Shown: positions 16,728-59,935, counted from the stretch's first letter. The stretch is 64,000 nucleotides of DNA from Naegleria gruberi (GCA_000004985.1 GG738863.1); one strand, 5' to 3'. Made by a program: numbers and translations. Notes: generated by a model not told the origin, from the letters alone.

Positions 16728-16819
16728 TGGCTACGGCGTCCGATTTGAGAAGTTAAGCATCGTCGAGCCACATCAGTACTGAGGTTGGAGACAACTTGGG
16801 AACCTGTGGTGCTGTAGTC
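16728..16819 (+). rRNA. 5S rRNA gene copy with a 27-nt internal deletion (probable pseudogene or variant)
   Basis: GGCTACGGC|GTCCGATTTGAGAAGTTAAGCATCGTCGAGCCACATCAGTACTGAGGTTGGAGACAACTTGGGAACCTGTGGTGCTGTAGTC followed by TTTT. It is identical over 86 nt to the reverse complement of 21603-21688. It lacks CATATCACGATGAATGCACCTCATCCC, which is present in the other copy after ACGGC. Confidence 0.55.
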
Positions 16820-16875
16820 TTTTATTTTGAAAACCTTTTGGCTATTTTCATCTTCAAAAAAAATGCAAGAAGAAA

Positions 16876-21588: not shown

Positions 21589-21606
21589 ATTTTTCTAAGA
21601 CAAAAA

Positions 21607-21724
21607 GACTACAGCACCACAGGTTCCCAAGTTGTCTCCAACCTCAGTACTGATGTGGCTCGACGATGCTTAACTTCTCAAATCGGACGGGATGAGGTGC
21701 ATTCATCGTGATATGGCCGTAGCC
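21607..21724 (-). rRNA. 5S rRNA gene (apparently full-length, about 118 nt)
   Basis: The reverse complement reads GGCTACGGCCATATCACGATGAATGCACCTCATCCCGTCCGATTTGAGAAGTTAAGCATCGTCGAGCCACATCAGTACTGAGGTTGGAGACAACTTGGGAACCTGTGGTGCTGTAGTC followed by TTTTT, which is a pol III terminator. The 5' GGCUAC pairs with the 3' GUAGUC to form helix I. The conserved ACGGCCATA, CCCGTCCGAT, AGTACT and GGGAAC...GGTGCTGTAG elements are in the expected order. Confidence 0.7.
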
Positions 21725-45320: not shown

Positions 45321-47543
45321 TTAAGATTTGGACAGGAAAGTGTTCACCAGTTGACCATTTAATTGTGAACTGGAGAGGTTTGGTTCGAATAATTGTCTTG
45401 TTGAGGGATGGAGCATCTTGAAGGTTTCTTCACTAATATGCAATTGATTCATTCTACCATTTGCCTCAATAGAATTACACAGAGAAACTCCCTCACCAAA
45501 CAAATCAAAACTTTGCTTGAACTTTCCAACAACTGCTGCTGTAATATTGGTAGAGGTGTGAATTCCAATTCGGACACCAATCTTGTTAGGATAGTTCCCT
45601 CCACCCAGAAATGCTCTCTTTTCATTGAATTTCTCAATGGATTTAATCATTTCAAAGCCACACTTAACACATTGCTCTGCATGTTTCGGTTCGTCATAGG
45701 ATGAGCTATGATAAAGACCACCAGCTAGGAAATAGCAATCTCCAATGGTTTTAATCTTTTCCAGCTTGTTGGAGGAGCATAAATCATCAAAGTTTTCGAA
45801 TATATCATGGAGCATCTTGATAACACTTGTTGGATTCATGTCACTAGTCAATTTGGTAAATCCAACAATGTCACAATAGAGCAATGTACAACATACAATA
45901 GAGTCAATAACTTTCAGACCCATTGAAAGTCTTTGTGCAATGTTTTTAGGGAAAATTCGATCCGTTATTCTGGTCAATTGTTCCTCTTTCGTTGCAACCA
46001 TTCCAGTATCTCTAATGAATCCAATAAAGTGAGATTTTTGACTTTTTGGATCAATTACTTCTGAAATTCTGGTTTCTATTGAGAGAATTCGTCCACATTT
46101 CCCTTCTGCTTTGAGGAACCTTACACTGTCAATTACTTTTTTCTGACCAGTTCTCATGTATCTCTCTAAATAGTAATCGTGCTTTCTTCTATCTGAAGAG
46201 TTGCAAAGCATTTTAATGTTTTTACCGAGAACTTCATATTTCTGATAGCCAAAAACATTCACAGCCGAATGATTAAAAACCTGAATGATTCCTTCCTGGG
46301 TAATAGCAATGATTGGAATGACTGAAAGTTCAGTAATTGAATCACAAATAGTCTTGTTTTTCATAAGTTTCTCATCTTCTTCACTTGTTTTACATTGTTG
46401 AATGTAGAGACAGTAATGAATCGTGCCAGTTTTTTTAACGGTGACAACTTTACCGTGACAAGGGAATGATTTCTTGAGTACGTTTGAATAGCATGTGAGT
46501 TTTAAATCTCTTACCAAAAGCTTTCGTCTTCTTCTCGATCGTTCCTCTTTCCTTGCAATTGAATATGGCAATCCATGAGAGGCACAATGAGTTTCTGTTA
46601 TATCCCAAGAATTCAATGAACCAGTAAATCTTTCAATTTCCATCTGAATGTCCATAATTGACTGCTCATCCACATACTTTGAAAGATTTTCGCCTAGAGC
46701 CACAAATGAATGAATTCCAAATAATTTCTCAGATTCTGGATTTAAATACTCGATTTCAAACTTCTCATTGAATATAATGATAGGAAATCCACACAACATC
46801 ATTTGATCTATGGCAGAATTCAACTCCTCAGATTCTTCCTGCATGAGTGGTGCGTCATTTTCAGTATATCCATTCATTACACTTCCATACACTTGCAAAT
46901 CACTCACCAAATCGAATGCATCATGTGTATAATCAATTGCTTGTTCAGACTCTGCTTCTGTCTCACCTTCACAATATTCTGATTCGATTGTTTGTCCAAA
47001 ATTAGCAAGACCGTTCAGTAAATTATTAGAGCTTTGCAATCCTTTGAGAAGCCTGGACGAAAGTCCCTTCTTGAATCCTGCAGCCCTTTTCAGTGTTTGC
47101 ATTCCTTGCTCTCTACTCTGAACAGAGAGAAAACTTGCTCCACTTCTAGCAGAAGATTGGGCACTTTCACAACCCATATCTGTAGAGTTTAAATCAAGAA
47201 AGAGTGAGTTTTTCAATTCACCTGGTTTAAGGCAAATGGAGGCACTTGCAACAGCCATAGTTGAGTATTGTCTTCCGAGTTGAGTAGGTGGTTTTAGGAC
47301 TTTTCTTTTAGGAAAAAGAAGTGGTTCCTCTACTCCATACGTACTTGTAGCATCTCCATTATATTCTGAAGTTTCGCATGAAGATACAGAAATTGCAGAA
47401 TCATCGTCATCATCATTAAGAGAAATTGAAAAGCCAGAAGGTTTCGTAATAATGGTTGGACGACTGTAGGAGAAAGTCTGATACTCCAAGTCACCAGAAA
47501 TTGATTCTTGCTCCTCAACAAGCATTCGTTTCTTCATGATCAA
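45321..47543 (-). CDS. PAS-PAS-class III nucleotidyl cyclase (adenylate/guanylate cyclase catalytic domain at the C-terminus)
   Basis: Single 740-aa ORF. An acidic Ser-rich N-terminus is followed by two PAS-like segments (CGFPIIIFNEKFEIEYLNPESEKLFG...; ICDSITELSVIPIIAITQEGIIQVFNHSAVNVFGYQKYEVLGKNIKML). The cyclase domain then reads CCTLLYCDIVGFTKL (metal Asp), KIKTIGDCYF, RIGIHTS...AAVVG, FDLFGEGVSLCNSIEANG. Confidence 0.85.
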   Translation of the reverse strand: MIMKKRMLVEEQESISGDLEYQTFSYSRPTIITKPSGFSISLNDDDDDSAISVSSCETSEYNGDATSTYGVEEPLLFPKRKVLKPPTQLGRQYSTMAVASASICLKPGELKNSLFLDLNSTDMGCESAQSSARSGASFLSVQSREQGMQTLKRAAGFKKGLSSRLLKGLQSSNNLLNGLANFGQTIESEYCEGETEAESEQAIDYTHDAFDLVSDLQVYGSVMNGYTENDAPLMQEESEELNSAIDQMMLCGFPIIIFNEKFEIEYLNPESEKLFGIHSFVALGENLSKYVDEQSIMDIQMEIERFTGSLNSWDITETHCASHGLPYSIARKEERSRRRRKLLVRDLKLTCYSNVLKKSFPCHGKVVTVKKTGTIHYCLYIQQCKTSEEDEKLMKNKTICDSITELSVIPIIAITQEGIIQVFNHSAVNVFGYQKYEVLGKNIKMLCNSSDRRKHDYYLERYMRTGQKKVIDSVRFLKAEGKCGRILSIETRISEVIDPKSQKSHFIGFIRDTGMVATKEEQLTRITDRIFPKNIAQRLSMGLKVIDSIVCCTLLYCDIVGFTKLTSDMNPTSVIKMLHDIFENFDDLCSSNKLEKIKTIGDCYFLAGGLYHSSSYDEPKHAEQCVKCGFEMIKSIEKFNEKRAFLGGGNYPNKIGVRIGIHTSTNITAAVVGKFKQSFDLFGEGVSLCNSIEANGRMNQLHISEETFKMLHPSTRQLFEPNLSSSQLNGQLVNTFLSKS

Positions 47544-48031: not shown

Positions 48032-49267
48032 TTATTGCATTTTGGATGAAAGTAAAATGAATTGTTGGATAGTTTGGCTAACATCACCACCATTTTGTTC
48101 AAGAATATCAACAAGGGCTCTTTCATTAGTCATGCCCATATTGCTCAAAACGTCAAGTTGGAATTGATATTTTTCTTTAAGGGCATTGAATCTTTCATCT
48201 TCAAAGTCTTCTTCATCACTATCCTCATCATCACTATCGAATTCCCTAATATCATCAATCTTGAGATCTCTAACTTGTTGAATAGTTTGATCGACAGATT
48301 GTTGTTGTTGTTGTGGAGCTTCAGCAACTGGCAATGGATGAACAACTAAATCTAACCAGAAAGTATGTCCAAATTGAATATCACCAGAACACAATTTGAA
48401 ATATCCCTTAAGTGGGCCAAGTTTTCTTGGAATAAAAGTAACAGATACGTCCACTGATTGATTTGGACTAGCAACTGGAACATTAGAAGAAACAATTTGG
48501 AAAGGAAGAGCCTTGGAATCTCTACAATGTAATTGAACATTGGATGGCCAATTGGTTGAGCCAGGGTTGACAATCTTCCAAGTTTTGGTAATTTCTTGAT
48601 TAATATAAACTGATGATCCATCAGGCAAGTTGACATCAGAGGAAAATCTGGCAACAAAAGGAGTAGGTTGTTGAGAGGTATTAAGAGCTACAAAACCCAT
48701 AGAGTCTTCCATTACTGTAGCTGTGGTTGGATGAGTAGGTTGTTGTTGGGTTGTAACAGAAGAAGGTTGAATTAGAACAGGTTGAGGAGAACTTGATTTT
48801 GGTTGAATTGGTTGAGTTGGTTGGATTGGTGATTCAGGTTGTTTCTGTGGTGAGGATGGTTTTTGTGGAGTTATTGGTTGTGGTTGAATGGTTGCTGTTG
48901 GAGGTGTGGTAATTGGGATTTCCTTCTTTACTGGTTGTGTTGGTTGTTCCTTCTTCTTTGGAATAACCTTCTCCTTCAAAGTAACTTGCATACATGGTGT
49001 AGAGAAGGACTTTTTAGCATAGTTCCATTCATCTTCACTTGTTGTAACGATCAAATCATCTTCATTGTCTTTGTATTGAACAAGGTGAGTGGTAATATCG
49101 ATATTTAATTGGAATGCTTTGGAAACTTGTTGATAAAATTCAATCAATGTACAAGATGATGGCACGGAAAATCTTCTAATTGTATCATTGAGTTTGACTT
49201 TAACGGACAGTTGTTGAAAGACTCCATAGTTATTGTACATGATTTGTTGTGGATGAAACATTTTCAA
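48032..49267 (-). CDS. NBR1-like selective autophagy receptor (PB1 - FW/NBR1 domain - UBA)
   Basis: 411-aa ORF. The N-terminal PB1 is VKVKLNDTIRRFSVPSSCTLIEFYQQVSKAFQLN...LVQYKDNEDDLIVTTSEDEW. A Pro/Gln-rich linker follows. The FW/NBR1-type beta domain is FVARFSSDVNLPDGSSVYINQEITKTWKIVNPGSTNWPSNVQLHC...GHTFWLDLVV. A C-terminal UBA is ALKEKYQFQLDVLSNMGMTNERALVDILEQNGGDVSQTIQQF. Confidence 0.75.
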   Translation of the reverse strand: MKMFHPQQIMYNNYGVFQQLSVKVKLNDTIRRFSVPSSCTLIEFYQQVSKAFQLNIDITTHLVQYKDNEDDLIVTTSEDEWNYAKKSFSTPCMQVTLKEKVIPKKKEQPTQPVKKEIPITTPPTATIQPQPITPQKPSSPQKQPESPIQPTQPIQPKSSSPQPVLIQPSSVTTQQQPTHPTTATVMEDSMGFVALNTSQQPTPFVARFSSDVNLPDGSSVYINQEITKTWKIVNPGSTNWPSNVQLHCRDSKALPFQIVSSNVPVASPNQSVDVSVTFIPRKLGPLKGYFKLCSGDIQFGHTFWLDLVVHPLPVAEAPQQQQQSVDQTIQQVRDLKIDDIREFDSDDEDSDEEDFEDERFNALKEKYQFQLDVLSNMGMTNERALVDILEQNGGDVSQTIQQFILLSSKMQ

Positions 49268-49727
49268 TGATGATCGGTTGTTTTTCTTCGTTTGCTGCTT
49301 TTCACGTTTGTTTGCAATATTTGTCTCTTATCGGTTCAATCAAATAATAATTAAAATTGCTTTGGATCAAAATGAAGAAACGTGATGGCAGTTTTTTTCT
49401 TGTTGTGTTCTATTTTAATCCTCATACGTGATGCTGAGAAGAATTCCTTTCGAGGTTCATTGTGTTATTGGATTTAAATTAGAAGGTTACACATTTCCCT
49501 TCTCAACGTAAATCAATTCCTTCATATTTTGAAGATAAAACATTCAAATTCTCCAATCAAATTGATTTACAAGATGGATCATCAACATTAAATATTGTTT
49601 TACCTCTAGAAAATGCTGGAAATGAAAAAAATTAAAAAATATTTCATCACCAGCTATCGCATCATTCGTTTTCAAACTCTCTAATTTATTTAAAATTAAT
49701 ATTAAATAATTAATTGATTATTAGATA
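49268..49727. promoter_or_regulatory. divergent promoter region between the NBR1-like gene (minus) and the EEP nuclease gene (plus)
   Basis: 460-bp spacer between two outward-facing start codons. Its 3' 130 bp (from 49601) is duplicated at 52706. Inference only. Confidence 0.3.
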
Positions 49728-50999
49728 ATGCCTCCTCGTAAGAAAGTAGAACAACAAACAAGTTCTTTTGCTTGTCTTGAAAATATTTCGGAACATGAAA
49801 TTCAACAAATTGCTGTTAAAAAGAGGAGAGGACGGCCAAAAACAAAGCCTTCTATTTATGCCGATTTTCCAATTGCTGATTGTATGGGAAGAAATTGGAT
49901 TTTGAGTAATGAAAGTGAATTGAGAAGCAAAGTAGATTCATTCCGATTAGTGTGTTATAATATGCTTTGTCAAGACTATGCAAAGAAACCATACTTTCCA
50001 CACTTGTCGGATACCACTGAAATTTTGAGTTGGATTAATAGAAAGCATAGATTATTGGATGAATTTTTAAGCTATCATGCTGATATTATTTGTTTACAAG
50101 AAGTTGATAGATATGGTGATCATTGGAGGGAAAGATTATTAAAGAATGGATATGAATCAACTTATACTCAAAGAACAGGTGGTAAACCTGATGGTTGTGC
50201 CACATTTTGGAAGAGTGAAAAGTTTGAAAGTATTAGAAATATACCAATTTTATTCAATGATGTAGCAAGACAAATTACGAAAAATAGTGAATTGGAAACT
50301 CATGAAAAGTGTGATTTGAATGGAAATGTAGTGACCAGTTCTAATTCAATTTCCAAGTTTCTGACTAATAATGTGGCTAATCTAACACTCCTCAAACATA
50401 GATCAAGTGAAAAGTTGGTTTGCGTTGTGAATTTACACTTGTTTTGGGATCCTTCATTCCCTGAAGTTAAATTATGCCAAATATTTTACACTATGAAACA
50501 GACAAAGGATTATCTCACTTCCCTATCACTTGAGGATATTCAAATATTCTTTTGTGGTGATTACAACTCAATGCCAGATAGTGAAGTTTATGAATTTTTA
50601 ACAAAAGGTCAGACCTTTATTCCAGGACACTTGATTCCATTTTATGCAGACTCTGACTTTAAAGATAGTATTTCTCTAGTTGAGTGTGAGAATGATGATG
50701 GTGAAAAAACTTTCAAACACCAAATTACCAATCCATTTGGGACTGCAACGAGTTTATACAAAGCTGTATGTGGAGATGAACCAACATTCACCAATTATAC
50801 CAAAAATTTTAAGGGATGTTTGGATTATGTGATGGCTTGTAATTATCCTACCAGTGGTGAAGAAAAGGGTATTCTTGTCAGTCGAGCATTACAAATACTC
50901 ACAGAAGAGCAAGCATCTGAGTTTGAAGCTCTTCCTTCGATCAAGAATGCCTCAGATCACATTTCCCATGCATTCGATTTTGACATTATGAAACTATAA
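49728..50999 (+). CDS. CCR4/nocturnin/angel-type endonuclease-exonuclease-phosphatase (EEP) family deadenylase-like protein
   Basis: 423-aa ORF. ...DIICLQEVDRYGDHW (the catalytic E of the LQEVD motif), ...GCATFWKSEKF, ...NLHLFWDP, FFCGDYNSMPDS and ...GCLDYVMA (the terminal D/H block) are in canonical EEP order. Confidence 0.8.
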   Translation: MPPRKKVEQQTSSFACLENISEHEIQQIAVKKRRGRPKTKPSIYADFPIADCMGRNWILSNESELRSKVDSFRLVCYNMLCQDYAKKPYFPHLSDTTEILSWINRKHRLLDEFLSYHADIICLQEVDRYGDHWRERLLKNGYESTYTQRTGGKPDGCATFWKSEKFESIRNIPILFNDVARQITKNSELETHEKCDLNGNVVTSSNSISKFLTNNVANLTLLKHRSSEKLVCVVNLHLFWDPSFPEVKLCQIFYTMKQTKDYLTSLSLEDIQIFFCGDYNSMPDSEVYEFLTKGQTFIPGHLIPFYADSDFKDSISLVECENDDGEKTFKHQITNPFGTATSLYKAVCGDEPTFTNYTKNFKGCLDYVMACNYPTSGEEKGILVSRALQILTEEQASEFEALPSIKNASDHISHAFDFDIMKL

Positions 51000-51005
51000 A
51001 TCAAC

Positions 51006-52349
51006 TCATACCAAGACCCTCTCTTCACTAATTTGTACAGAATTCATTGAATGAACATCTGTTGCTGTATCAATATTGAGATAAATATTGGTATTAGTGT
51101 CAGAGGCACGAATGGTTCCATTATTTTCAACTCTTGAAATTTCAAATTGTGGAGGTGGTTCATTCATTGAAATTAAATGAAGTTTTTGAGTCTTTCCACC
51201 TTCAATTTCACAAGTTCCTAGAAATCGTATCGTACAAACTTCGTCCAATATTGAAGCTGTTGTTCCATCACAAATTATTCCACTCTCTAAATGATCGATA
51301 GCATAATAACAATGAGCAATAGATGAATTGATTAATTCCCCATACAATCCAAAATGTCTTCTAAAATCCGATCCAACACTAGCTCTGTAACCATAACCAC
51401 TTGCAAATCCAACACCATCGACCTCTAAATTCTCCCTATGAATTAGTTCTTTCAAACAGTGAATTACTAATGAAGGATTGGACTCTGCCATATGTCGTTC
51501 AAAGCTCAATATAAATTTTAGACTCTTTCTATCAAAGAACATATCAAGAACACAACAGTTATATTGCTCTGAAACAACTTGAATAGAATTGACAATATTA
51601 TTCTTTGTTGCNNNNNNNNNNNNNNNNNNNNNNNNNNNNNNNNNNNNNNNNNNNNNNNNNNAATTAATTATATTCATTAATTTAGCTGTAGACAGAGGAG
51701 TGTTTGTTCCGAAAGTTTGAAGAGGAGCCATTAATTGTTTCCTCTTTCTAATAGTTGCATTTACCTGCTTAATAATCCTTTTCTTTTGAATTTTTGAATT
51801 AGATTTGAACCATTTTGCATCCTTTACAGTGTCTTGCAGATCTTTCTTTTTAGCCATTAATTCCATAGTATCACTAGGAGAAGCATTTACTATTAATGAA
51901 TTTAATGGAATACATTTTGCTCCCAAAATTTTCAATTGATTCTTTTTGGAAGTAACCTTGTCAGCTTTACGTTTTAGAACTAGAACACTTCTTTGATTAT
52001 CATCATGAGCAATAATGGAATAGGTTTGATTTTTTCTACTTGCAATCAGTGTTTCGAATGGAACAGTTTCAATATGTTGTAATTCTTCCTTTCTGATTTT
52101 ATAATTTTTAACCTTTTTAATTTTGTCAATGCATAGGGCAACATATTTTCTCTTCAACCATTGAAATACTCTATTACAACAAAATCCTTGATGAATGTGT
52201 TTCTTTAATTCTTTGGATGCAAGATTTCTTCCTGTTTTATTCAATAAAAAAGCTCTGTACCAACGTTTCTTGTTGTGAGTTGTTTGACAGCAAACACAAA
52301 CAGTTCCTTTATCAATTAGTTGTGTTGATCGTGATGACAACTTACACAT
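51006..52349 (-). CDS. hypothetical protein (Cys-rich basic N-terminus; interrupted by an assembly gap)
   Basis: 447-aa ORF reading across the N-run 51612-51661. MCKLSSRSTQLIDKGTVCVCCQTTHNKKRWYRAF..., with ...GYGYRASVGSDFRRHFGLYGELINSSIAHCYYAIDHLESG at the C-terminus. Convergent with the EEP gene, with 6 bp between stops. No family assigned. Confidence 0.45.
   Translation of the reverse strand: MCKLSSRSTQLIDKGTVCVCCQTTHNKKRWYRAFLLNKTGRNLASKELKKHIHQGFCCNRVFQWLKRKYVALCIDKIKKVKNYKIRKEELQHIETVPFETLIASRKNQTYSIIAHDDNQRSVLVLKRKADKVTSKKNQLKILGAKCIPLNSLIVNASPSDTMELMAKKKDLQDTVKDAKWFKSNSKIQKKRIIKQVNATIRKRKQLMAPLQTFGTNTPLSTAKLMNIINXXXXXXXXXXXXXXXXXATKNNIVNSIQVVSEQYNCCVLDMFFDRKSLKFILSFERHMAESNPSLVIHCLKELIHRENLEVDGVGFASGYGYRASVGSDFRRHFGLYGELINSSIAHCYYAIDHLESGIICDGTTASILDEVCTIRFLGTCEIEGGKTQKLHLISMNEPPPQFEISRVENNGTIRASDTNTNIYLNIDTATDVHSMNSVQISEERVLV
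51612..51661. other. assembly gap (50 N)
   Basis: n run inside ORF 51006-52349. Confidence 0.99.
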
Positions 52350-52705
52350 TTTTTTCCCAAGTTTTTCTTTCTGACAGTTCTAGAGAAAATTAGAATAATT
52401 TGTGCAAATTTTATTTTTAGCAACCAGCTAAAAAAACTGAGCTGAAAATTCCTCATTGCTTTCTTTACCTTTTTTCTCAATAACCAGAGAGAGAACTGCG
52501 GAGAACTGCAAGATTTGGATTGTTTACATCAAATAATAGTGATAATGGTAAGATCAGTTTCTAACTCGTGTTTCTGTACGTTTCCAACAGAGTTAAAGTT
52601 AAGGTAAATTACGCTCAGAAACAGCTGGTAAATTTCCACTTTTTTCCATTATTTTTTAAAAAAAACACAAGTTTATGCTGTAGCAAAGGACATCCGATAC
52701 ACGAG

Positions 52706-53161
52706 TACCTCTAGAAAATGCTGGAAATGAAAAAATTAAAAAATATTTCATCACCAGCTATCGCATCATTTGTTTTAAACTCTCTAATTTATTTAAAATT
52801 AATATTAAATAATTAATTGATTATTAGATAATAGATAATGCCTCCTCGTAAGAAAGTAGAACAACAAACAAGTTCTTTTGCTTGTCTTGAAAATATTTCG
52901 GAACATGAAATTCAACAAATTGCTGTTAAAAAGAGGAGAGGACGACCAAAAACAAAGCCTTCTATTTATGCCGATTTTCCAATTGCTGATTGTATGGGAA
53001 GAAATTGGATTTTGAGTAATGAAAGTGAATTGAGAAGCAAAGTAGATTCATTCCGATTAGTGTGTTATAATATGCTTTGTCAAGACTATGCAAAGAAACC
53101 ATACTTTCCACACTTGTCGGATACCACTGAAATTTTGAGTTGGATTAATAGAAAGCATAGA
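52706..53161. repeat. near-identical duplicate (about 99%) of 49601-50051, covering the promoter and first 108 codons of the EEP nuclease gene and ending at an assembly gap
   Basis: Direct comparison shows identity except for a few indels/substitutions in the upstream part (A7 vs A6; cattcgttttcaaactct vs catttgttttaaactctc; an extra tagataa) and one coding substitution (ggacggcc vs ggacgacc). Confidence 0.85.
52838..53161 (+). pseudogene. truncated duplicate copy of the 5' end of the EEP nuclease gene (108 codons, then gap); probably an assembly artefact rather than a functional gene
   Basis: MPPRKKVEQQTSSF...WINRKHR is identical to residues 1-108 of ORF 49728-50999. It is cut by the N-run 53162-53211. 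Confidence 0.6.
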
Positions 53162-53211
53162 NNNNNNNNNNNNNNNNNNNNNNNNNNNNNNNNNNNNNNN
53201 NNNNNNNNNNN
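53162..53211. other. assembly gap (50 N)
   Basis: n run separating the duplicated EEP fragment from the sAC-like paralogue. Confidence 0.99.
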
Positions 53212-54630
53212 GTTTTGCTTTCAATACCATACAGTACATTTCTGTTCATGAACAGGTAGAGAGCATTTGCAAAAGTGTAATGGAAGGAAACAGAGTCAAG
53301 TGGATGAGAAGAAATATCCCTCGAAAGTGATGTAACTTGAAATAAATTAGGTGATTCCTCATTAGCCCTCAAAAATTGCCTACACTTTTCAAATATATCA
53401 CCACTAATATAAACATTACCTTGTTTACACTCTTTCAACAATTCCCTAACCCTTAGTAAAACTTCCCCTCCGAAAATTCTCAACCATTGAGATCCAAAAC
53501 CTCCCAAATGATAGGAAGTACACTCACCCACATTAATAACACATTTCACCTCCAATGGTGTGTCATTTGATTTGTAAGTTTTCAAATTGGTCATGGTTTG
53601 AATTTTAATTCCACATTTTACAGCTGCAAGAATTGAATCTGTGAAAGTTCTATCCATCCTAGGTGAGTAGAATTGACAAATAATCAAATCTCCTTGAAAT
53701 TTTTCAATATCTCCACCCATTTCATATATTACAGCAATTAAACTAGTGTACACATAGTAGATATATCTTGATATTTCAGAAACGTTGCAAGTATCCTTTT
53801 CATGATAGAAGGAGTCCACAATTTTTGAAAATCCTTTCATTTCAATAAGTAATATACATGTTTCATAGGAAAATTCACTCACAGGTGAGAGTAACTTCAT
53901 CTTTTCCTCTTCCACTGGTTTGATAGATGAAGTAGAACCATTTTGCTTGTATTTCTTCCACAAATTAATTCCAGGACTTGATGATTTCTTCTTATTATTT
54001 ACCAAAGCTCCTCTTACTAGGTGATGAAGATCTACTATTAGAATCACTATTATTTACAACATTATTATTAGGGATTGGTGATGTTGGACCAGGTGGTAGT
54101 GAAGGAGAATGTGGACGGTCAGATCCCTTATTAGAAGCAGATCCAGTACTAACAGAGAGAAAACTAGAGAATTTACTCTCTGTATCGAGACCTTCATTGG
54201 AATTTGTTTTCTGAAGGTGATGTCCTAGCTTTACCTTATATTGTTTACCCTCGCCTCCATAATATATATATCGGAGGCAATATAGTAAATGTTGAGGAAG
54301 GAAGGAGGTTGACAATTCGAGATTTAATTCCTCCTGTGATTTGGCCTTGGAAGGTGATACAGATTGATAATTATTCAAGCCAATAAAGCTCACTCTAGCA
54401 TTGGGTATTCGGAAGGAGCTTGCCTTCTTCATCTCTGCTGAGGCTCTCACTTGAATATTCTCAAATTCCTCACTGGTGATGGAGGTTCTTGATAGCTTGT
54501 CCCTTCCAAATTGAAACTTGGGCGAGAATGTATTAAGGGAGTGATGGCCACCTTGTGTTGTTGTGATGGATTTGCTGAGAGAAATGTGATCACCGCCCTG
54601 CTTATGAGAAGAGCTACAGATAGCTCCCAT
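53212..54630 (-). CDS. sAC/ADCY10-like cyclase paralogue (N-terminal region plus first cyclase-homology domain only; frame break; truncated by the gap). Possible pseudogene or incompletely assembled gene
   Basis: ORF 53995-54630 starts MGAICSSSHK... and is paralogous to the N-terminus of the downstream gene (shared ...FLPQHLLY(C/N)L..YY). ORF 53145-54047, in another frame, encodes SEFSYETCILLIEMKGFSKIV...LIAVIYEMGGDIEKFQGDLIICQF..., the cyclase C1 homology. The two frames overlap at 53995-54047 with no plausible intron, and sequence is lost in the gap. Confidence 0.45.
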
Positions 54631-54981
54631 TTTAATAAAAATTTGTTGGTAGTGATAAAAACGTTATTTCTTATGCCCATCCAATGAACAAATTAGTGCA
54701 TTATTTGTTAGACCGTTGTGATGAACTTAAAGGAAAAGGAAACAGTAAATAGTAGTACCAAGGATAGTCTTACTCAATACTCCTTCTCACAGAATTATAA
54801 ATTGTTTTCTGGTATTGGAACTGCAAAGAACAGCTCCAAGAGTGAAATACTCATGAGTTGGTACTCTTTCCCATTTCCTTCTTGCTTTCGACACTACTTG
54901 AGATGGGTAAGTGAAACAGGGTTTTAACTTAATATTATTTTCCAAATCGGTATGCATGATGAATTAATAAAGATAGTCCAA

Positions 54982-57900
54982 CTACTGCTTAATTATCTTA
55001 TATCTTTCATTCAAAGATTGGATTGATTCGTGTTGTTCAATGTAATTTTCCATAAGATAATCCATATCTGAAATAATATCTGGAAGTTTGTCTTCTACAT
55101 ATTTCAGTCCTTTCGATATTAAATAATGATAGCAGTCGTACATGTCCAGAAGAATTCTCAACTTGACACCATGCGCTGATTGAGAAGAAACAAATTGCAG
55201 TGCATCAGAGTAGGATTTTTCAACATTAGGATAGCATTCTTCGAAAGATGCCTCAAGCAATGAGCACTTGATTAGAAGAAATCTGGATTGCAATCTCAGT
55301 ATTTCTCCTAATAAATTTTCTTGATGTGATGCTAGTGCATTCTTGAAGAGTGTCTCTGTATGTTCAAGATACGGAACATCAGTACCAATTTGGATACTAT
55401 CTAGGAATTCCAAATACTTGACCCGAGACTCTAAAATTGCATAATCGAATATTAAGCTTGGAGGTGCATAAATGTGAAGAGAGTTAAAGAGAGATTCCAT
55501 GTGATCAGCTTGTTCCCTTAACCGTTGCTCTTTCTCTACAATATTAATTCCAGACGTTAACTCTCTGCAAAATTGGACATAGGCAAGATAAAACTTGGCG
55601 CTTAATACTTGGGTTGGACTTGCCACAGTTGTTGAAAATATTGAAATGATGCTCATTCCTTGATTAGCTGATCTCTCTAGCTCATCCAATTGACCACTAA
55701 TTAATAAATAGTAGCAAGCAAATGAGTAAAAGAACATGTAAGAAGGGAGGTGAAGTCTGACCCTGCTCTGTTCAGATCCCAAAGTGTAGTATTTTGATGC
55801 ACTCTCATATTTACCAACAGACCACAAAGCCCGCATCGAGTAGGTACAAGATACAAGCAAAGCATCCCTTTTTCTGAACCTATTAATGGACTGTTGATGA
55901 TACTTGTCGGGATCGCTCAAATACTGATTGATAACATCTTCAGAGAAGAGAATTACCTTATTAAAATTACCCCTGGTGTTGTGAGTCATCATGCAAGATA
56001 CAGAACCAAACATTTGCTGTGTAGTATCTCCTATTTCTGTTGATAAATTAATGAGGTTTGAACTCAATACTATTGCTTCATCTGTCTTGTTCAAGTAAAA
56101 AGCCATGAACCATCTCTCAGATTCAATAGAAAAGATCAACTCTTTCTCTGATTCTGGGCAATACAGTTTTGCTTTGGTTAATGCTTCCTCACCAGTCGGC
56201 ATCAAATTTGCGTCAAACAAATTCTCAATAAATATTCCAAATTTGAGTAGACTCTTTGCAAGTAAGATTTTAACACTCAAAAAACTGAGACCCAAAATGG
56301 AAAAAGTTGAAGAAATTCGTGTTATCCCTTCAAATCTCTTTCTGGTAATATCAATCAGGGAGAGAACTGACTCGAAAACGTTCAGCTTTGTAACATCTAA
56401 TAGGTCGGTGTACTTGACTTCTTCATTTCCTTCCTTTTCTCCTTTCCACAATGTTACAATTTTCTCCAATATCGTATTAAATGAAACACAAAGATGCTTG
56501 AAAACAGAAGCTTCCTGCTCTTGGCTCAATAGAGTGATAGCTTTTGGAATTATAACACACGCCAATGCTAAATGAAGCATTTCCTCCTTTTCTACTGATC
56601 CTAGCGAGAGGGTTTCCTCTAAAGCAATCTTATCAAAATAGTGGCCTAAATGAACGGCGATTTCCTTAATATACCACGAGGATCGTTCTCTACTTTTGTG
56701 TCTTCTACATTGTTGCTCAATTGTCTTGATAAAGTGTTTGGCAAGAGACATGTGAAATTCTCTCTTTTGCTCTTTGGGAGTAGTGGAATACACAATCTGT
56801 AGCATCATGGAAGATTTGAATTTGAACGTTCTGTCCTTACTTGATGAACAAGCAAGAAAATGTTTACCCTTTGTCTCCTCAACCACTTCTAAAAACTGAT
56901 GACTGCCAACAAGATTCTTCAAAATATCTGATAATTTTCTGTCCTTTTTCACATTTGATTCCTTTGGGAATATTGCTTCAAGAGTCTCAAAATCGAATTG
57001 GATTCCAATCGAAGATGCAACTTTCAGAACAAGTTGAGAGTCAACATCCAATCTGTCAATCTTTTGTTGAAAGAACGAAGACATTGTGGCAGGCAATTCA
57101 ATCGTATCCATAGTCGTAAATTTAAACTTGAGGCAGCCATCTTCTACATAAGTTCTTCCATTTTCTTGTAAAAAGTGAAGGGCCATTGTTAAAAACTGTT
57201 GATTTCCCTCTGTTTTTTCGACGAAAATGTCTAAAACCTTTGGATCGACTTTTGAAGCATTAAAATAAAGCTTTAAGTATTCTTCACATTCAGACTTGGT
57301 GAACTCTTTAAGGTCGATTACTAAGTCAGCCTTAGCCTTCCACTCATCAAGCTCTTTTCTCTTCTCCGCCATTTGTGGTCCATCTGGAAGCTCGTTACAG
57401 GAAAGCAACAATACACAGTTGGTAATTCCTGGCTCAAGGTCCAAAATTTTTTTCGTAACAATCCTTGAATAGGGGTCAAACTGCATTGTAAAATGGAAAT
57501 CGTCATATAGTAGAAACCAAGGTTGTGCTGAATACCCCATATACATCCAAGAAATAGAAAGCAATCTAGCGAAAAGATCAGCAGCGATGGTAATTCTCTC
57601 CTCCTGATCCAGTTTAACACTATCTTTCGACTCTTTAAACTCGGTACCTACAACTGGGTTCAATAAGTATAAATTGTCACGATCTTTTTCTTCTTTGAAA
57701 GTTTCCAACATTATTTCTTCTCTTTGTTCTCTACTAATATTGTTGTAAAGATTTTCAACATCATTATAATCTAAATCCAATCCGTTCTTCTTATAAAAAC
57801 GTTCAGTAATGCTAATCTTCAGGTTTCCTAGATAGAGATAAAATGGAGTTTCGAACTCAATAGCTGAATTATAAACACAGGCAAGTTTTGATTTCAATTC

Positions 57901-59935
57901 GCTCACTAATCTTCTCAAAAGGTCAGATTTTCCAACACCATTTTCTCCTTTCACAAAAATTATCTTGGTCTTTGTTTTCTTACCCTGTTCTATTTCTTGC
58001 TGTTTTTCATTAACATATCCACAAATACTATCAAATATTTCCTCTCTTCCAATAGGATATTTGAGAGAATTCAAATGCTCAGAGCCACTGTAACTTTTCT
58101 TACCAGATGATTCAGAATGGTCTTCTGTCATAATTTGTGAAGGAGATTTCTTAATGTTATAATACATTTGAGTTGAAGAGATTGATGAGTCTTTGACCTT
58201 CCAAATTTTTATCAAATCTGATTTTCCCTTCACCTTGATTGGCTCTAGTGGTTCTATTGGAATACCCTTCAACATTTGAGCTGTCTCCTCTTCACATAAC
58301 ACAACTCCATCATTTTTTTCTGATTCCTTCATTAAACGGGCAGCCAAATTTACCTTATCACCATAAATAGTAAACTCCTTTCTATATTCTGACCCACTGA
58401 TACAGATTATTAAGGTTAAATAAATATAAACATACACATTTCCAATAAAACACTTTCCACTGGCAATTCCCAATCCAAACTTCATTCCTAGTTGAGATAA
58501 ATTGCCTGACAGTTCAATACCTGCCTTCACTGCTCTAATGGAATCACTGATATGACTAACAGGATAACCAAAAGAAAATACAAGAATAGTACCCTTTTCA
58601 TCCGACAACATGTTTGCAATAAAACCCTCATAAGTTTCCAATACGCCTTGAACGTTTGTTAAATATGTTTGATACACTTGCATTTCATCATCTTTTGTTT
58701 CGTACTTGTTTGTATCAATAATGGACAAGAACCCCACTGTGAGAGGTTTGACTTCATTGATCCATTCACTTTGTCCTGCATCTATCTTGTTTCTAACAGG
58801 TGGGCTAATAAATTTACGAAGTATTGGAATAAAGGTTGAGTTCACTGTTAGAATGGGTAATGATAGTCCAGTAATGGGCTCCCTTTTTGATGCCAGAGCT
58901 ACATACACATCTGCCTCTTTGATTTCTAACTTTCTACAAGTGATATAATTGGAACATTTTTCAAATGCTGGCCTGGTTATCACAACTTGTCCTACCAGAC
59001 TATTACCCAAAGCGGAGGACATTTCGAGAAGAGCTTGGCCAGAAGTGATTCGAAGCCAGTAATCATTCACTCCCAAATGGTGCGTCGTTACATATCCCAA
59101 AGACACACCACAATGTATCTGAAGTGATATGTTATCATTCACCTTGAAAGATTTCAAATATTCAGTCTGCTGAATTCGCAAGGCACATTGAACAGCCGCA
59201 ATTACACACTCAGCCAAAGTTCTATCCTTACGTGGGTAATGGAATTGACAAATAATAGCCTATAGATTTCATTCAATAAAAAAGTTCTTAAGCAACTTAC
59301 ATCTCCTGCAAATCGTTCGATATCTCCTCCAAACTTTGCATGTTAATACTTTGCGCAATTATCCTACTTACATCATAAATAAAGGCAATTAATGTCGTAA
59401 AATATTGATTAATATATTTAGTAAGAAGCTCAGCTCCATTAGGTTCTTTTGAAAGGCTCTCTGTTAAATTAGTAAATCCAGAAATGTCAATCATTAAAAT
59501 ACAGGTTTCATATGTTATATTACTAAGTGGAGACATTGTTGTTGACATTTCTTCCTCCAATGCCTTTGATTTCCTATCATTTACATTACTATTATTATTG
59601 CTCTTGTAATAGAGAGACTTGAGATTATACAACAAATGTTGAGGTAAATAAGAACAAATTATTTCCGCATTAACCTCCTCCGTTGTTTTTTTTCCATTTC
59701 CAAAAGGTATTGTTTTAAATCCCATCAAATTCACTCGGGGAGGAGGAAGTTTGAAAGAGTGTGCCTTACGAACCTCCACCACTTTCGTTTCTGACTCCGA
59801 GGAAGCATAAGAATCTTTTGATACTCTCCTTTCCGAATATCTAATTGATTTATGTTGATTAAAATCTTTTGGTGATTCTTGTTGATTAGGACTAACAACA
59901 TTCTCACTGCTGTTCAAGCTGCAAGCAGATCCCAT
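54982..59935 (-). CDS. soluble adenylyl cyclase (sAC/ADCY10)-like protein: two cyclase homology domains, P-loop NTPase region and C-terminal helical/TPR-like repeats (about 1620 aa, 4 or more exons)
   Basis: Exon 1 (59935-59372) encodes MGSACSLNSS...TYETCILMIDISGFTNL...LIAFIYD. A 38-nt intron (59334-59371) is followed by a 33-nt exon (59301-59333), FGGDIERFAGD. A 41-nt intron (59260-59300) leads into exon 3, AIICQFHYPRKDRTLAECVIAAVQCALRIQ.... Joined, IAFIYDFGGDIERFAGDAIICQF matches sAC KVLIFGGDILKFAGDALLALW. A second domain carries ...IGNV|GSEYRKEFTIYGDKVNLAARLM across an in-frame 39-nt intron (58397-58435). Further elements are FVKGENGVGKSDLLRRL (Walker A), hhhhDD (Walker B) and long helical repeats. 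Stop at 54982. Confidence 0.8.

What the first reader, a model, noticed from the sequence alone, without database searches (positions are those of the whole stretch)
53212..59935. Tandem sAC (ADCY10)-like cyclase paralogues with N-terminal MGxxCS lipidation motifs
Gene 54982-59935 reconstructs, once three tiny introns are removed, the hallmark sAC C1 motif ...FGGDIERFAGDAIICQF and a C2 domain ...IGNVGSEYRKEFTIYGDKVNLAARLM. A P-loop (GENGVGKS) and long helical repeats follow, which is the ADCY10/SgcA-type architecture. Immediately upstream lies a second copy (53212-54630) with a parallel N-terminus and C1 domain (ETCILLIEMKGFS..., GGDIEKFQGDLIICQF). Both begin MG(S/A)xCS (MGSACSLNSS / MGAICSSSHK). 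A Gly2 myristoylation site plus a Cys for palmitoylation predicts that these 'soluble'-type cyclases are membrane-anchored. Together with the PAS-cyclase at 45321-47543, three class III cyclase genes lie within 15 kb.
Basis: partly seen in the sequence, partly recalled or inferred. Interest (0 to 1): 0.6.

Follow-up and report, generated by a model that had tools for sequence, protein, structure and literature searches.

The report
Lipid-anchored sAC-type cyclase pair, Naegleria
Two neighbouring Naegleria gruberi genes encode relatives of "soluble" adenylyl cyclase that both start with a conserved fatty-acid attachment signal; one looks like a working enzyme and is already annotated (with an error), while the other is an unannotated, shortened and probably inactive copy that the genome assembly has broken in two.

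Summary
The sequence observation is confirmed. The window is Naegleria gruberi. Gene A (59935→54982, minus strand) is the annotated NAEGRDRAFT_66608 ('FM146'). With three introns of 38, 41 and 39 nt removed it gives 1611 aa: C1–C2 cyclase core (best solved match human ADCY10), a P-loop NTPase, then a TPR-like solenoid.

Gene B (54630→53212) is a real, divergent paralogue (about 30% identity), not an assembly duplicate. It is not a second full-length sAC. A 97–99% identical metagenome contig shows an intact 710-aa C1–C2-only protein. Its 3' end lies in the window at 51611→51006, behind a 1.5-kb interloper contig. The window copy also carries a 2-nt frameshift. Gene B's fold matches the sAC core, but its catalytic residues are degenerate, so it is probably a pseudo-cyclase.

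The MG(S/A)xCS start is conserved in all six Naegleria copies. MG-plus-Cys starts also occur in Percolomonas and Diplonema homologues but in no bacterial relative, which supports myristoyl/palmitoyl anchoring. Lipidation, product, activity and ADCY10 orthology remain untested. This is a new variant of a known kind, of moderate interest.

The parts
59372..59935 (-). Gene A exon 1. It encodes the MGSACS acylation motif (59918-59935), a roughly 130-aa disordered N-terminal extension, the SYLPQHLLY helix (59627-59653) and the start of C1 with the first metal Asp (MIDISGFT, 59471-59494).
   Evidence: There is no upstream in-frame ATG, and an A sits at -3.
59334..59371 (-). Gene A intron 1 (38 nt, GTAAGT...AAAG).
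   Evidence: Its removal is needed to join FIYD to FGGD. The N. lovaniensis orthologue has an intron within about 10 nt of this position.
59301..59333 (-). Gene A 33-nt microexon encoding FGGDIERFAGD. It carries the second metal-binding Asp (human sAC D99 equivalent) and is absent from the public model NAEGRDRAFT_66608.
59260..59300 (-). Gene A intron 2 (41 nt, GTAAGT...ATAG).
58436..59259 (-). Gene A exon 3: the rest of C1 (to about 58948), the C1-C2 linker and the first part of C2 (from about 58821). It includes FIANMLSDEKG (58591-58623), where Asn replaces sAC Lys334.
58397..58435 (-). Gene A intron 3 (39 nt, in frame, GTATGT...TCAG). It interrupts the GNV|GSEYRKEF motif.
   Evidence: The public model also removes it. 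It is absent in N. lovaniensis.
54982..58396 (-). Gene A exon 4: the end of C2 with Thr/Asn/Arg (KVNLAARLM, 58330-58356), Walker A GENGVGKS (57925-57948), Walker B FLLYDDF (57496-57516), a winged-helix region, a TPR-like alpha-solenoid (about 56790-54985) and the stop codon.
53212..54630 (-). Gene B 5' part: MGAICS motif, a low-complexity linker and a degenerate C1 (LIEMKGFS, GGDIEKFQGD). A 2-nt deletion between 54015 and 54014, relative to L002, shifts the frame.
53162..53211 (.). 50-N scaffold gap.
51662..53161 (.). Interloper contig inside gene B. Its last 458 nt are a 97.6% copy of 49601-50051 (the 5' end of the Exo_endo_phos gene). It is absent from the intact gene B contig L002. It is most likely a mis-scaffolded allelic or paralogous fragment.
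51612..51661 (.). Second 50-N scaffold gap. Together with the first gap it stands for about 94 nt of gene B, as judged from L002 1769-1862.
51006..51611 (-). Gene B 3' part: a degenerate C2 domain (...HFGLYGELINSSIAHC...) and the stop codon (EERVLV*). It is 99.4% identical to L002.
45321..47543 (-). Neighbouring PAS-domain class III cyclase, a different subfamily with a single catalytic domain.

Best explanation
The locus holds an old tandem pair of sAC-type class III cyclase paralogues in Naegleria gruberi.

Gene A (NAEGRDRAFT_66608, 'FM146'; corrected model 1611 aa) is the catalytic member.
- One chain carries C1 and C2, which should fold into an intramolecular pseudo-heterodimer with a single active site.
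- C1 supplies both metal Asp residues. C2 supplies the class IIIb Thr and the transition-state Asn and Arg.
- An AAA+/STAND-type P-loop NTPase and a TPR-like solenoid follow, presumably for regulation or oligomerisation.

Gene B encodes only the lipidation motif, a linker and a C1-C2 core of 710 aa.
- The core keeps the sAC fold but has Glu at the first metal Asp position and has lost the C2 purine contacts and the transition-state Arg.
- It is most likely a non-catalytic pseudo-cyclase acting as a regulator, scaffold or ligand binder.

Both proteins begin MG(S/A)xCS, ahead of a eukaryote-specific disordered extension of about 90-250 aa.
- After Met removal, Gly2 would be N-myristoylated and Cys5 S-palmitoylated.
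- This would tether these 'soluble-type' cyclases to a membrane on a flexible leash. The plasma or flagellar membrane is the inferred site.

What is shown: the gene structures, domain content, residue states, fold, conservation of the motif, conservation of the tandem pair in N. lovaniensis, and the assembly artefact.

What is inferred: lipidation, membrane location, the product (cAMP is slightly favoured over cGMP), the inactivity of B, and any A-B interplay.
For: Identity and organism:
- Gene A is 97% identical over 100% of its length to N. gruberi NAEGRDRAFT_66608/FM146. The differences are gene-model differences only.

Gene A domains:
- Pfam Guanylate_cyc, two stretches, E 1.8e-15.
- Human ADCY10 is the best PDB sequence match for both C1 (aa 143-303) and C2 (aa 346-512), E 3e-29.
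- Walker A and B motifs are present, with a weak AAA_16/NACHT hit. Homologues carry PF13191 plus TPR families.
- The AF2 model of aa 475-1611 has mean pLDDT 80.9. It shows an alpha/beta NTPase followed by a long helical solenoid. Foldseek hits are to ORC/Cdc6 AAA+ proteins and to TPR proteins.

Gene A catalytic residues (human sAC numbering):
- D47, D99, T405, N412 and R416 are present.
- K334 is Asn. That position is K in 158, Q in 50 and N in 15 of the family members scanned.

Microexon:
- The N. lovaniensis orthologue protein contains FGGDVEKFSGD, and its gene has a microexon between two introns at nearly the same place.

Gene B:
- It matches gene A at E 3e-50.
- An intact 710-aa ORF exists on ENA contig L002. 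L002 is 97.4% identical to window 54909-53212 and 99.4% identical to 51611-50253.
- The AF2 core (residues 250-665) has high pLDDT. The top 24 Foldseek PDB hits are all human sAC, with target-normalised TM-score 0.69-0.74 and E down to 2e-23.
- An exhaustive profile search matches C1+C2 as one stretch in two-domain cyclases.
- Residue states: D47E, K334D, T405G, R416A. The paralogue P0122 additionally has N412K.
- Between the two strains there are 8 synonymous and 6 non-synonymous differences, roughly dN/dS 0.24.

Tandem pair:
- N. lovaniensis has the A orthologue followed 0.9 kb downstream by a second copy starting MGSSCS with the same degenerate signature.
- In a neighbour-joining tree the clade B + P0122 + the N. 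lovaniensis second copy has 100/100 bootstrap support. It is sister to the long-form clade, which also has 100/100.

Lipidation motif:
- The N-termini are MGSACS, MGAICS, MGSGCS, MGASCS, MGAGCS and MGSSCS in Naegleria, MGNGCS in Percolomonas, MGCGAS in Diplonema and MGCAAS in P0138.
- Nine of ten eukaryotic relatives in this clade fit G-{EDRKHPFYW}-x(2)-[STAGCN]-{P} and have a nearby Cys. P0004 (MGNCLRG) is the exception.
- None of the bacterial homologues examined does. They start directly at the conserved (A/S)SY(V/L)P helix.

Precedents:
- Gly2-myristoyl plus Cys-palmitoyl is a known flagellar or ciliary membrane signal (PMC6678300).
- The apicomplexan sAC orthologue ACbeta is tethered to a membrane through the dually acylated ARO protein and AIP (PMC5746546).
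Against: - No lipidation, localisation, transcript or enzyme data exist here. All of these are inferred from sequence.
- Gene B has no Pfam hit at all.
- In this assembly gene B is frameshifted and interrupted, so in strain NEG-M it could be a dead gene rather than a pseudoenzyme.
- Glu can sometimes replace a metal-binding Asp, and non-canonical cyclases exist, so inactivity of B is not proven.
- Gene A lacks Lys334 and the bicarbonate-site Arg176. Its substrate and its regulation therefore cannot be read across from mammalian sAC.
- The paralogue P0003 is labelled 'guanylyl cyclase' by its annotators.
- The flagellar link rests on the source name 'FM146' plus my recollection that FM denotes the flagellar-motility gene set of the N. 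gruberi genome paper. That paper could not be read here.
- Outside the two cyclase genes, the N. lovaniensis locus L001 shows no similarity to this window.
Confidence: 0.7

Rival explanations
1. Gene B is simply a decaying pseudogene in the sequenced strain. It was frameshifted by a 2-nt deletion and disrupted by a 1.5-kb insertion, and has no function.
For: - A 2-nt deletion at 54015/54014 gives a stop eight codons later.
- Foreign DNA lies between the two halves of the gene.
- No NCBI model for gene B was returned by the homologue search.
- The catalytic residues are degenerate.
Against: - Apart from the single frameshift, both halves stay open for about 480 codons in a 35% GC genome.
- They are 97-99% identical to an intact 710-aa ORF in a sister strain, with synonymous changes outnumbering non-synonymous ones per site.
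- The degenerate clade is old and retained. It includes N. gruberi P0122 (702 aa, 52% identity, intact) and the N. lovaniensis tandem copy.
- Both junctions of the interloper are N-runs, and one end stops in the middle of a duplicated gene. That is typical of mis-scaffolding.
Confidence: 0.2
2. The MGxxCS start is not a lipidation signal, or only myristoylation occurs, and the proteins are cytosolic like mammalian sAC and Dictyostelium sGC.
For: - A consensus match alone is a weak predictor of modification.
- Dictyostelium sGC reaches the cell cortex through an N-terminal F-actin-binding region rather than lipid (PMC8684759).
- P0004 (MGNCLRG) does not fit the position-6 rule.
Against: - The first six residues are held constant across proteins whose next 100 or more residues are unalignable low-complexity sequence.
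- The pattern recurs in Percolomonas, in Diplonema and in P0138 (source organism not looked up).
- Bacterial relatives lack the whole extension.
Confidence: 0.2
3. Gene A is a guanylyl rather than an adenylyl cyclase, as is the Dictyostelium sAC homologue sGC.
For: - The adenine-contact Lys334 is replaced by Asn in the whole Naegleria/Percolomonas clade.
- The paralogue P0003 is named 'guanylyl cyclase' by its source.
- Dictyostelium sGC shows that the sAC topology can make cGMP (PMC8684759).
Against: - The canonical guanylyl cyclase pair (Glu and Cys) is absent.
- The second specificity position keeps the class IIIb Thr, as in sAC.
- From memory and not checked here: M. tuberculosis Rv1900c has Asn at this position and is mainly an adenylyl cyclase.
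Confidence: 0.3
4. The family is not orthologous to metazoan ADCY10. It descends from a separate bacterial C1-C2-AAA_16-TPR cyclase acquired by an ancestor of Discoba.
For: - Bacterial proteins are the closest non-Discoba hits: 33-38% identity and 210-290 bits over the core, against 24-29% identity and 65+75 bits for human sAC.
- They share the full architecture and the N-terminal SY(V/L)P helix.
Against: - In a crude neighbour-joining tree, human sAC falls next to the Discoba clade rather than inside the bacterial sequences. Support for that placement was not measured.
- Metazoan sAC may simply be fast-evolving.
- The source name FM146 implies that the genome authors placed it in a family shared among eukaryotes (the meaning of FM is from memory).
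Confidence: 0.35

Closest known systems
Mammalian soluble adenylyl cyclase (ADCY10, sAC) and its truncated C1-C2 isoform
   Same: - One chain carries C1 and C2, and human sAC is the best sequence match among solved structures for gene A.
- It is also the best fold match for gene B's predicted C1-C2 core.
- Gene A has the class IIIb Thr at position 405 and conserved D47, D99, N412 and R416.
- A P-loop NTPase and a helical repeat region lie C-terminal to the core.
- Gene B has the same domain content as the C1-C2-only short sAC isoform. The existence of that isoform is recalled from memory.
   Different: - Sequence identity is only 24-29%.
- In gene A Lys334 is Asn, the bicarbonate-site Arg176 is Ser and Lys95 is Arg.
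- An N-terminal extension of about 130 aa carries an MGxxCS acylation motif, and that extension has no counterpart in the human sAC core sequence aligned here.
- Gene B is a separate gene with a degenerate active site, not a splice or proteolytic product of gene A.
Bacterial 'class 3 adenylate cyclase / predicted ATPase / TPR' proteins (Guanylate_cyc + AAA_16 + TPR_12; cyanobacteria, Chloroflexota, Verrucomicrobiota)
   Same: - These are the closest non-Discoba relatives of gene A (E 1e-76 to 1e-60), colinear over C1-C2-NTPase across 55-60% of the query.
- They share the SY(V/L)P N-terminal helix.
   Different: - The bacterial proteins examined have no N-terminal extension and none starts with an MG-plus-Cys motif.
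- Most keep Lys at the 334 position.
- The Naegleria C-terminal solenoid gets no Pfam TPR hit.
Dictyostelium sGC (SgcA), the sAC homologue that makes cGMP
   Same: - It is a protist sAC-topology enzyme with a C-terminal AAA-ATPase region.
- It works at the cell cortex or membrane, and its non-catalytic N-terminus determines its localisation (PMC8684759).
   Different: - sGC localises through F-actin binding, not a predicted lipid anchor.
Apicomplexan ACbeta tethered by ARO and AIP
   Same: A bicarbonate-type sAC orthologue is held on the cytosolic face of a membrane by dual acylation (PMC5746546).
   Different: There the acyl groups sit on a separate adaptor protein (ARO). Here the motif is on the cyclase polypeptide itself, and on its degenerate paralogue.
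Dually acylated flagellar or ciliary proteins (calflagin/FCaBP, RP2, CePPEF)
   Same: Gly2 myristoylation plus palmitoylation of a nearby Cys acts as a membrane or flagellar targeting signal (PMC6678300). The MGxxCS and MGCxxS starts fit that pattern.
   Different: Those are small calcium-binding or regulatory proteins, not cyclases. Targeting of the Naegleria proteins is untested.

Membership tests
Class III nucleotidyl cyclase (Pfam PF00211) | Significant match to the Guanylate_cyc profile | tested here: met
   Gene A scores 57.5 bits against a cut-off of 21.9, E 1.8e-15, in two stretches. Gene B has no Pfam hit on its own. Gene B qualifies only through homology to gene A (E 3e-50), PDB sequence hits for C1 (CyaB 2.7e-6, ADCY10 7e-4) and fold.
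Class III nucleotidyl cyclase (Pfam PF00211) | Two metal-binding Asp residues in the C1-type domain | tested here: met
   Gene A has D in MIDISGFT and D in FAGD. The second is present only if microexon 59301-59333 is included. In gene B the first Asp is Glu (LIEMKGFS) and the second is present.
Class III nucleotidyl cyclase (Pfam PF00211) | Transition-state Asn and Arg in the C2-type domain | tested here: met
   Gene A has KVNLAAR, with both Asn and Arg. Gene B does not meet this: in ELINSSIAH the Asn is kept and the Arg is Ala. P0122 has lost both.
sAC / ADCY10-type cyclase | C1 and C2 in one polypeptide, class IIIb (Thr in place of the purine-contact Asp) | tested here: met
   Both domains of gene A align to human sAC residues 41-200 and 266-432. 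The Thr405 equivalent is present in EFTIYG. In gene B that position is Gly.
sAC / ADCY10-type cyclase | C-terminal P-loop (STAND/AAA+) NTPase followed by TPR-like repeats | tested here: met
   Walker A GENGVGKS and Walker B FLLYDDF are present. AAA_16 scores only 20.8 bits, below its 32.6 cut-off, but homologues carry PF13191 plus TPR families. The AF2 model shows an alpha/beta NTPase plus a solenoid, with Foldseek hits to ORC/Cdc6 and to APC/LGN TPR proteins at E about 1e-4. Gene B does not meet this: the protein ends after C2.
sAC / ADCY10-type cyclase | Bicarbonate-site residues Lys95 and Arg176 | tested here: not met
   Gene A has Arg at position 95 and Ser at 176. Gene B and P0122 have Lys and Arg at these aligned positions. 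The functional meaning is untested.
sAC / ADCY10-type cyclase | Adenine-contact Lys334 | tested here: not met
   Asn in gene A, P0002, P0003, P0004 and Percolomonas; Asp in gene B. The position varies across the wider family: K in 158, Q in 50, N in 15 and R in 12 members.
sAC / ADCY10-type cyclase | Orthology with metazoan ADCY10 | tested here: inconclusive
   In a neighbour-joining tree of 21 cores, human sAC sits beside the Discoba clade, with support not measured. Raw similarity is higher to bacterial proteins.
sAC / ADCY10-type cyclase | cAMP synthesis stimulated by bicarbonate or calcium | not testable with these tools
   Needs an enzyme assay.
Dually acylated (N-myristoyl + S-palmitoyl) proteins | Gly2 after the initiator Met, a permissive residue 3, a small or hydroxyl residue at position 6, no Pro at 7, and a nearby Cys | tested here: met
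   Gene A MGSACSL and gene B MGAICSS both fit. The ATG is the first in-frame ATG and has an A at -3. The pattern itself was recalled from PROSITE PS00008.
Dually acylated (N-myristoyl + S-palmitoyl) proteins | Motif conserved in orthologues and paralogues while the surrounding sequence diverges | tested here: met
   Six of six Naegleria copies have it, as do Percolomonas, Diplonema and P0138. P0004 is the exception. No bacterial homologue examined starts MG-plus-Cys, and all lack the extension.
Dually acylated (N-myristoyl + S-palmitoyl) proteins | Lipid actually attached; membrane localisation depends on Gly2 and Cys5 | not testable with these tools
   Needs metabolic labelling and mutants.
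Pseudoenzyme (pseudo-cyclase), for gene B | Catalytic fold kept, catalytic residues lost, and the gene retained over evolutionary time | tested here: met
   The fold matches sAC (target-normalised TM-score 0.69-0.74). D47E, K334D, T405G and R416A are seen. The clade is shared by N. gruberi (two genes) and N. lovaniensis with 100/100 bootstrap support. Lack of activity itself is not testable here.

The most novel reading that the evidence does not exclude
The tandem pair may be a functional two-component module conserved in Naegleria. One component would be a lipid-anchored active sAC-type cyclase. The other would be a lipid-anchored, catalytically dead C1-C2 paralogue that has kept the residues lining the sAC regulatory (bicarbonate) pocket (Lys95 and Arg176), which the active enzyme has lost. 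The dead copy would act as a membrane-resident small-anion or ligand sensor, or as an allosteric partner controlling cyclic-nucleotide output at the plasma or flagellar membrane during the amoeba-to-flagellate switch.
Probability: 0.1. Interest if true: 0.65.

Novelty: new variant of a known kind. Interest (0 to 1): 0.4.

Why it matters
sAC-type cyclases are usually described as the non-membrane branch of cyclic-nucleotide synthesis. A conserved Gly2/Cys acylation motif on a eukaryote-specific leash, found across Heterolobosea and in a diplonemid, suggests that early-branching eukaryotes place this enzyme class directly on membranes. That gives a simple hypothesis testable with G2A and C5S mutants.

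The work also has practical results:
- It corrects the public model of NAEGRDRAFT_66608, which lacks a 33-nt microexon encoding a catalytic Asp and so looks inactive.
- It recovers an unannotated gene that the reference assembly splits with a misplaced contig.
- It identifies a Naegleria-restricted clade of C1-C2-only pseudo-cyclases kept in tandem with an active paralogue. This is relevant to anyone cataloguing the very large Naegleria cyclase repertoire, which has at least 81 members (PMC9928731), including in the pathogen N. fowleri.

Tried and rejected
- Exact-sequence contig look-ups found nothing on record for P0001, for P0122 and for the 211-aa truncated gene B product. The frameshift could therefore not be checked against an independent assembly.
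- The first word-indexed search with gene B returned only two proteins, probably swamped by low-complexity words. It was replaced by an exhaustive profile search.
- The afdb50 fold library was unavailable. The gene A C-terminus could therefore not be compared directly with the ADCY10 or SgcA AlphaFold models, and the PDB gave only generic AAA+ and TPR matches.
- The primary papers were not held: the Dictyostelium sGC paper (EMBO J 2001) and the N. gruberi genome paper (Cell 2010). No paper was found linking Naegleria to soluble adenylyl cyclase or to the FM gene set.
- The N. lovaniensis locus L001 shows no similarity to the window outside the cyclase pair.
- I considered that gene B might be an assembly duplicate of gene A. 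This is rejected, since the two share only about 30% amino-acid identity.
- I considered that a small intron might absorb gene B's frame change. No short GT..AG pair of plausible size fits the intronless sister-strain ORF. Frame-restoring pairs of 103 or 109 nt that use the deletion-created GTAAGAGG do exist, but this is speculative.
- I considered that the 87-nt inverted repeat might be tRNA genes. None was found. They are 5S rRNA copies.

Full report
ORGANISM AND CODE. The window is 31-38% GC. It reads with the standard genetic code and has four N-runs, three of them exactly 50 N. The spliced gene A protein is 97% identical over its whole length to 'hypothetical protein NAEGRDRAFT_66608 [Naegleria gruberi]', which UniRef names 'Uncharacterized protein FM146'. 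The next best hits are from N. lovaniensis (52%) and an N. gruberi paralogue annotated 'guanylyl cyclase' (41%). The window is therefore N. gruberi nuclear DNA.

CHECK OF THE OBSERVATION. Both genes lie on the minus strand. Gene A starts at the ATG at 59935, which is the first in-frame ATG and has an A at -3. It ends at the TAG at 54984-54982. Three short GT..AG introns are needed: 59371-59334 (38 nt), 59300-59260 (41 nt) and 58435-58397 (39 nt). Their removal gives an uninterrupted 4836-nt CDS of 1611 aa.

The 33-nt microexon (59333-59301, FGGDIERFAGD) is the critical point. The public protein skips it (...FIYD|AIICQF...) and so lacks the second metal-binding Asp. The public model also splices out 34 residues of the C1-C2 linker (YVALASK...RKFIS). 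The N. lovaniensis orthologue protein contains both segments. Its gene has a microexon (GDVEKFSG) flanked by two longer introns within about 10 nt of the N. gruberi positions, and it lacks the C2 intron. The linker segment also aligns to human sAC LQKYVMESILKQID.

WHAT GENE A IS. Pfam finds Guanylate_cyc in two stretches (E 1.8e-15), plus weak AAA_16, NACHT and other P-loop hits centred on aa 609-794. Among all PDB sequences, human ADCY10 is the best match (E 3e-29). C1 (aa 143-303) aligns to sAC 41-200 and C2 (aa 346-512) to sAC 266-432. Single-domain bacterial cyclases follow at E 1e-15 or weaker.

I mapped the residues on human sAC numbering, which I checked by counting along the aligned human sequence.
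- D47, D99, T405, N412 and R416 are conserved.
- K95 is Arg, R176 is Ser and K334 is Asn.
- Asn at the 334 position is shared by the whole Naegleria/Percolomonas group.
- Across 240-odd family members in hand, that position is K in 158, Q in 50, N in 15 and R in 12. The substitution is therefore a family-level variant rather than a sign of decay.

The AF2 model of aa 475-1611 has mean pLDDT 80.9. It shows an alpha/beta P-loop domain, a winged-helix-like segment and a long, confidently predicted helical solenoid. Foldseek against the PDB gives only weak matches (E about 1e-4), to ORC/Cdc6 AAA+ proteins and to TPR superhelices such as APC subunits, LGN and TTC7B. This fits the cyclase-STAND-TPR layout that the bacterial homologues show explicitly through PF13191 and the TPR families.

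In raw similarity, the gene A core is closer to these bacterial proteins (33-38% identity, 210-290 bits) than to human sAC (C1 24%, 65 bits; C2 29%, 75 bits).

WHAT GENE B IS. Gene B's N-terminal part and C1 align to gene A at about 29% identity (E 3e-50), so it is not an assembly duplicate. Frame 0 from the ATG at 54630 stops after 211 codons, and the cyclase part continues in frame 1.

An ENA metagenome contig (L002, 3221 bp) carries a single intact 710-aa ORF (P0121) that is 97% identical to it. Aligning L002 to the window gave two blocks:
- L002 59-1768 matches window 54909-53212 at 97.4%.
- L002 1863-3221 matches window 51611-50253 at 99.4%.

Three conclusions follow.
1. The window copy has a 2-nt deletion (CCTAGTA--AGAGG) between 54015 and 54014, and this causes the frame change.
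2. Only about 94 nt of gene B are truly missing.
3. The rest of gene B, a C2-type domain ending EERVLV*, is in the window at 51611-51006.

The 1500-bp block 51662-53161 between the two 50-N runs is foreign to gene B. Its last 458 nt are a 97.6% copy of 49601-50051, the promoter and 5' end of the Exo_endo_phos gene at 49728-50999. That is the gene which really converges on gene B's 3' end, just as it does in L002. A fragment that stops mid-gene and is bounded by N-runs on both sides is most simply a mis-scaffolded allelic or paralogous contig.

No gene B model from the NCBI N. gruberi proteome was returned. A second N. gruberi gene, P0122 (702 aa, 52% identity), has the same short architecture.

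GENE B LOOKS NON-CATALYTIC. Neither P0121 nor P0122 gets any Pfam hit. However:
- An exhaustive HMMER profile search matches two-domain cyclases across C1+C2 in one stretch. Only three proteins score below 1e-30, all from Naegleria.
- AF2 predicts residues 250-665 with high confidence.
- The top 24 Foldseek PDB matches are all human sAC catalytic core, with target-normalised TM-score 0.69-0.74 over about 450 columns and E down to 2e-23.

The residue states are D47E, D99 kept, K334D, T405G, N412 kept and R416A. In P0122 N412 is also lost. With the transition-state Arg and both purine contacts gone, canonical catalysis is unlikely.

The C1 positions aligned with the sAC regulatory-pocket residues K95 and R176 are Lys and Arg in the short forms but Arg and Ser in gene A. 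I record this without claiming a function for it.

Between the two strains gene B differs at 8 synonymous and 6 non-synonymous sites, roughly dN/dS 0.24 on very small counts.

THE PAIR IS OLD. In N. lovaniensis the gene A orthologue is followed about 0.9 kb downstream by a second copy on the same strand, currently split into two models (P0171 and P0123). It begins MGSSCS. It has Lys at the D47 position, FDPEE in place of FAGD, DFGLFG, and Gln at the R416 position, but it keeps a P-loop (GEKGLGKT).

A neighbour-joining tree of 21 catalytic cores (403 columns, 100 bootstraps) gave:
- gene B + P0122 + the N. lovaniensis second copy as a clade, 100/100;
- gene A + its orthologue + P0003 as the sister clade, 100/100;
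- all Naegleria sequences together, 80/100.

The active/degenerate duplication therefore predates the split of the two species, and the tandem layout has persisted. Other parts of the N. lovaniensis locus show no similarity to this window.

THE LIPIDATION MOTIF. The N-termini are:
- MGSACS (gene A), MGAICS (gene B), MGSGCS (N. lovaniensis A orthologue), MGASCS (P0003), MGAGCS (P0122) and MGSSCS (N. lovaniensis second copy);
- MGNGCS (Percolomonas cosmopolitus, MMETSP0758, taxid 63605);
- MGCGAS (Diplonema papillatum 'Adenylate cyclase 2', KAJ9465188.1);
- MGCAAS (P0138).

All nine fit the N-myristoylation pattern G-{EDRKHPFYW}-x(2)-[STAGCN]-{P}, recalled from PROSITE PS00008, and have a Cys at position 3 or 5. 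P0004 (MGNCLRG) is the only exception. The residues after position 7 are unalignable low-complexity sequence.

The bacterial homologues begin within 10-20 residues of the conserved (A/S)SY(V/L)P helix. In gene A that helix sits at aa 95-103. The motif therefore heads a eukaryote-specific, disordered extension, with pLDDT below 50 in the gene B model.

Gly2-myristoyl plus Cys-palmitoyl is an established membrane, ciliary or flagellar targeting signal, as in calflagin, RP2 and CePPEF (PMC6678300). The apicomplexan sAC orthologue ACbeta is held on the rhoptry membrane through the dually acylated ARO protein and AIP (PMC5746546). Dictyostelium sGC uses its N-terminus to reach the cortex (PMC8684759). 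I found no paper describing a directly acylated sAC-type cyclase, or sAC in Naegleria, in the searchable library. That is absence of evidence within this library only.

MECHANISM PROPOSED. Shown: the structures, residues, folds, conservation and the assembly artefact. Inferred: after Met removal both proteins are myristoylated on Gly2 and palmitoylated on Cys5, and hang from a membrane on a flexible linker of 90-250 aa. Gene A makes a cyclic nucleotide at a single C1/C2 active site under the control of its NTPase/TPR module. Gene B is a non-catalytic relative at the same membrane.

A flagellar role is suggested only by the source name FM146, by my recollection that FM denotes the flagellar-motility phylogenetic-profile set of the genome paper (not readable here), and by the flagellar precedent for dual acylation.

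The product is undecided. The class IIIb Thr and the absence of the Glu/Cys guanylyl cyclase pair lean towards cAMP. The loss of Lys334 and the Dictyostelium precedent keep cGMP open.

CONTEXT. The third cyclase, at 45321-47543, is a PAS-domain single-domain class III enzyme of a different subfamily. N. gruberi and its relatives encode at least 81 cyclases (PMC9928731). One more member is unremarkable in itself. The tandem active/degenerate pair and the shared acyl motif are the distinctive features.

VERDICT.
- Gene A is an already annotated (but mis-modelled) sAC-architecture cyclase.
- Gene B is an unannotated C1-C2-only probable pseudo-cyclase, fragmented by the assembly and frameshifted in this sequence.
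- The conserved MGxxCS start is good comparative evidence for lipid anchoring, but it is untested.

I rate novelty as a new variant of a known kind, and interest at 0.4.

Noticed in passing
window 51662-53161: A 1.5-kb contig between two 50-N runs sits inside gene B. Its last 458 nt are a 97.6% copy of 49601-50051 (the 5' end of the Exo_endo_phos gene). Its first 1044 nt match nothing else in the window. It is probably a mis-scaffolded allelic or paralogous fragment.
   Followed up: yes
window 59301-59333 and about 58830-58930: The public model NAEGRDRAFT_66608 omits the 33-nt microexon that encodes a catalytic Asp. It also removes 34 aa of the C1-C2 linker as a false intron. The paralogue P0003 model shows a similar hole after GDIEKFAGD.
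   Followed up: yes
window 59744-59770 (gene A RKAHSFKLP); gene B KKASSFRIP at about 54390-54420: A conserved basic-basic-x-x-S-F-[KR]-[IL]-P motif lies inside the otherwise disordered N-terminal extension of five of the six Naegleria copies aligned (not P0003). It resembles a basophilic (PKA/PKG-type) kinase site and could provide feedback control.
   Followed up: no
window 54008-54017: The 2-nt deletion in gene B creates GTAAGAGG, which resembles the GTAAGT donors of the gene A introns. GT..AG pairs of 103 or 109 nt (54017 to 53915 or 53909) would restore the reading frame. This is purely formal and untested.
   Followed up: partly
window 21606-21724 (-) and 16729-16820 (+): There is one full 5S rRNA gene (105 bits) and one weaker or partial copy (42 bits) in inverted orientation. 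They share an 87-nt perfect repeat. No tRNA genes occur in the window.
   Followed up: partly
window 39306-44693 (-): A very large ORF (about 1,790 aa, with one N inside) encodes an alpha-2-macroglobulin-like protein (A2M_BRD, A2M, MG2 and Big_5 domains). It has a CCEQ sequence where a thioester motif would be expected.
   Followed up: partly
window 48032-49267 (-): A protein with PB1 and N_BRCA1_IG domains, i.e. an NBR1-like autophagy receptor candidate.
   Followed up: no
L001 16323-20181 (N. lovaniensis): The second tandem cyclase copy is split into two public models (P0171, 188 aa, and P0123, 1032 aa). They appear to be one gene encoding a protein that starts MGSSCS with a degenerate C1-C2 and a P-loop.
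   Followed up: partly
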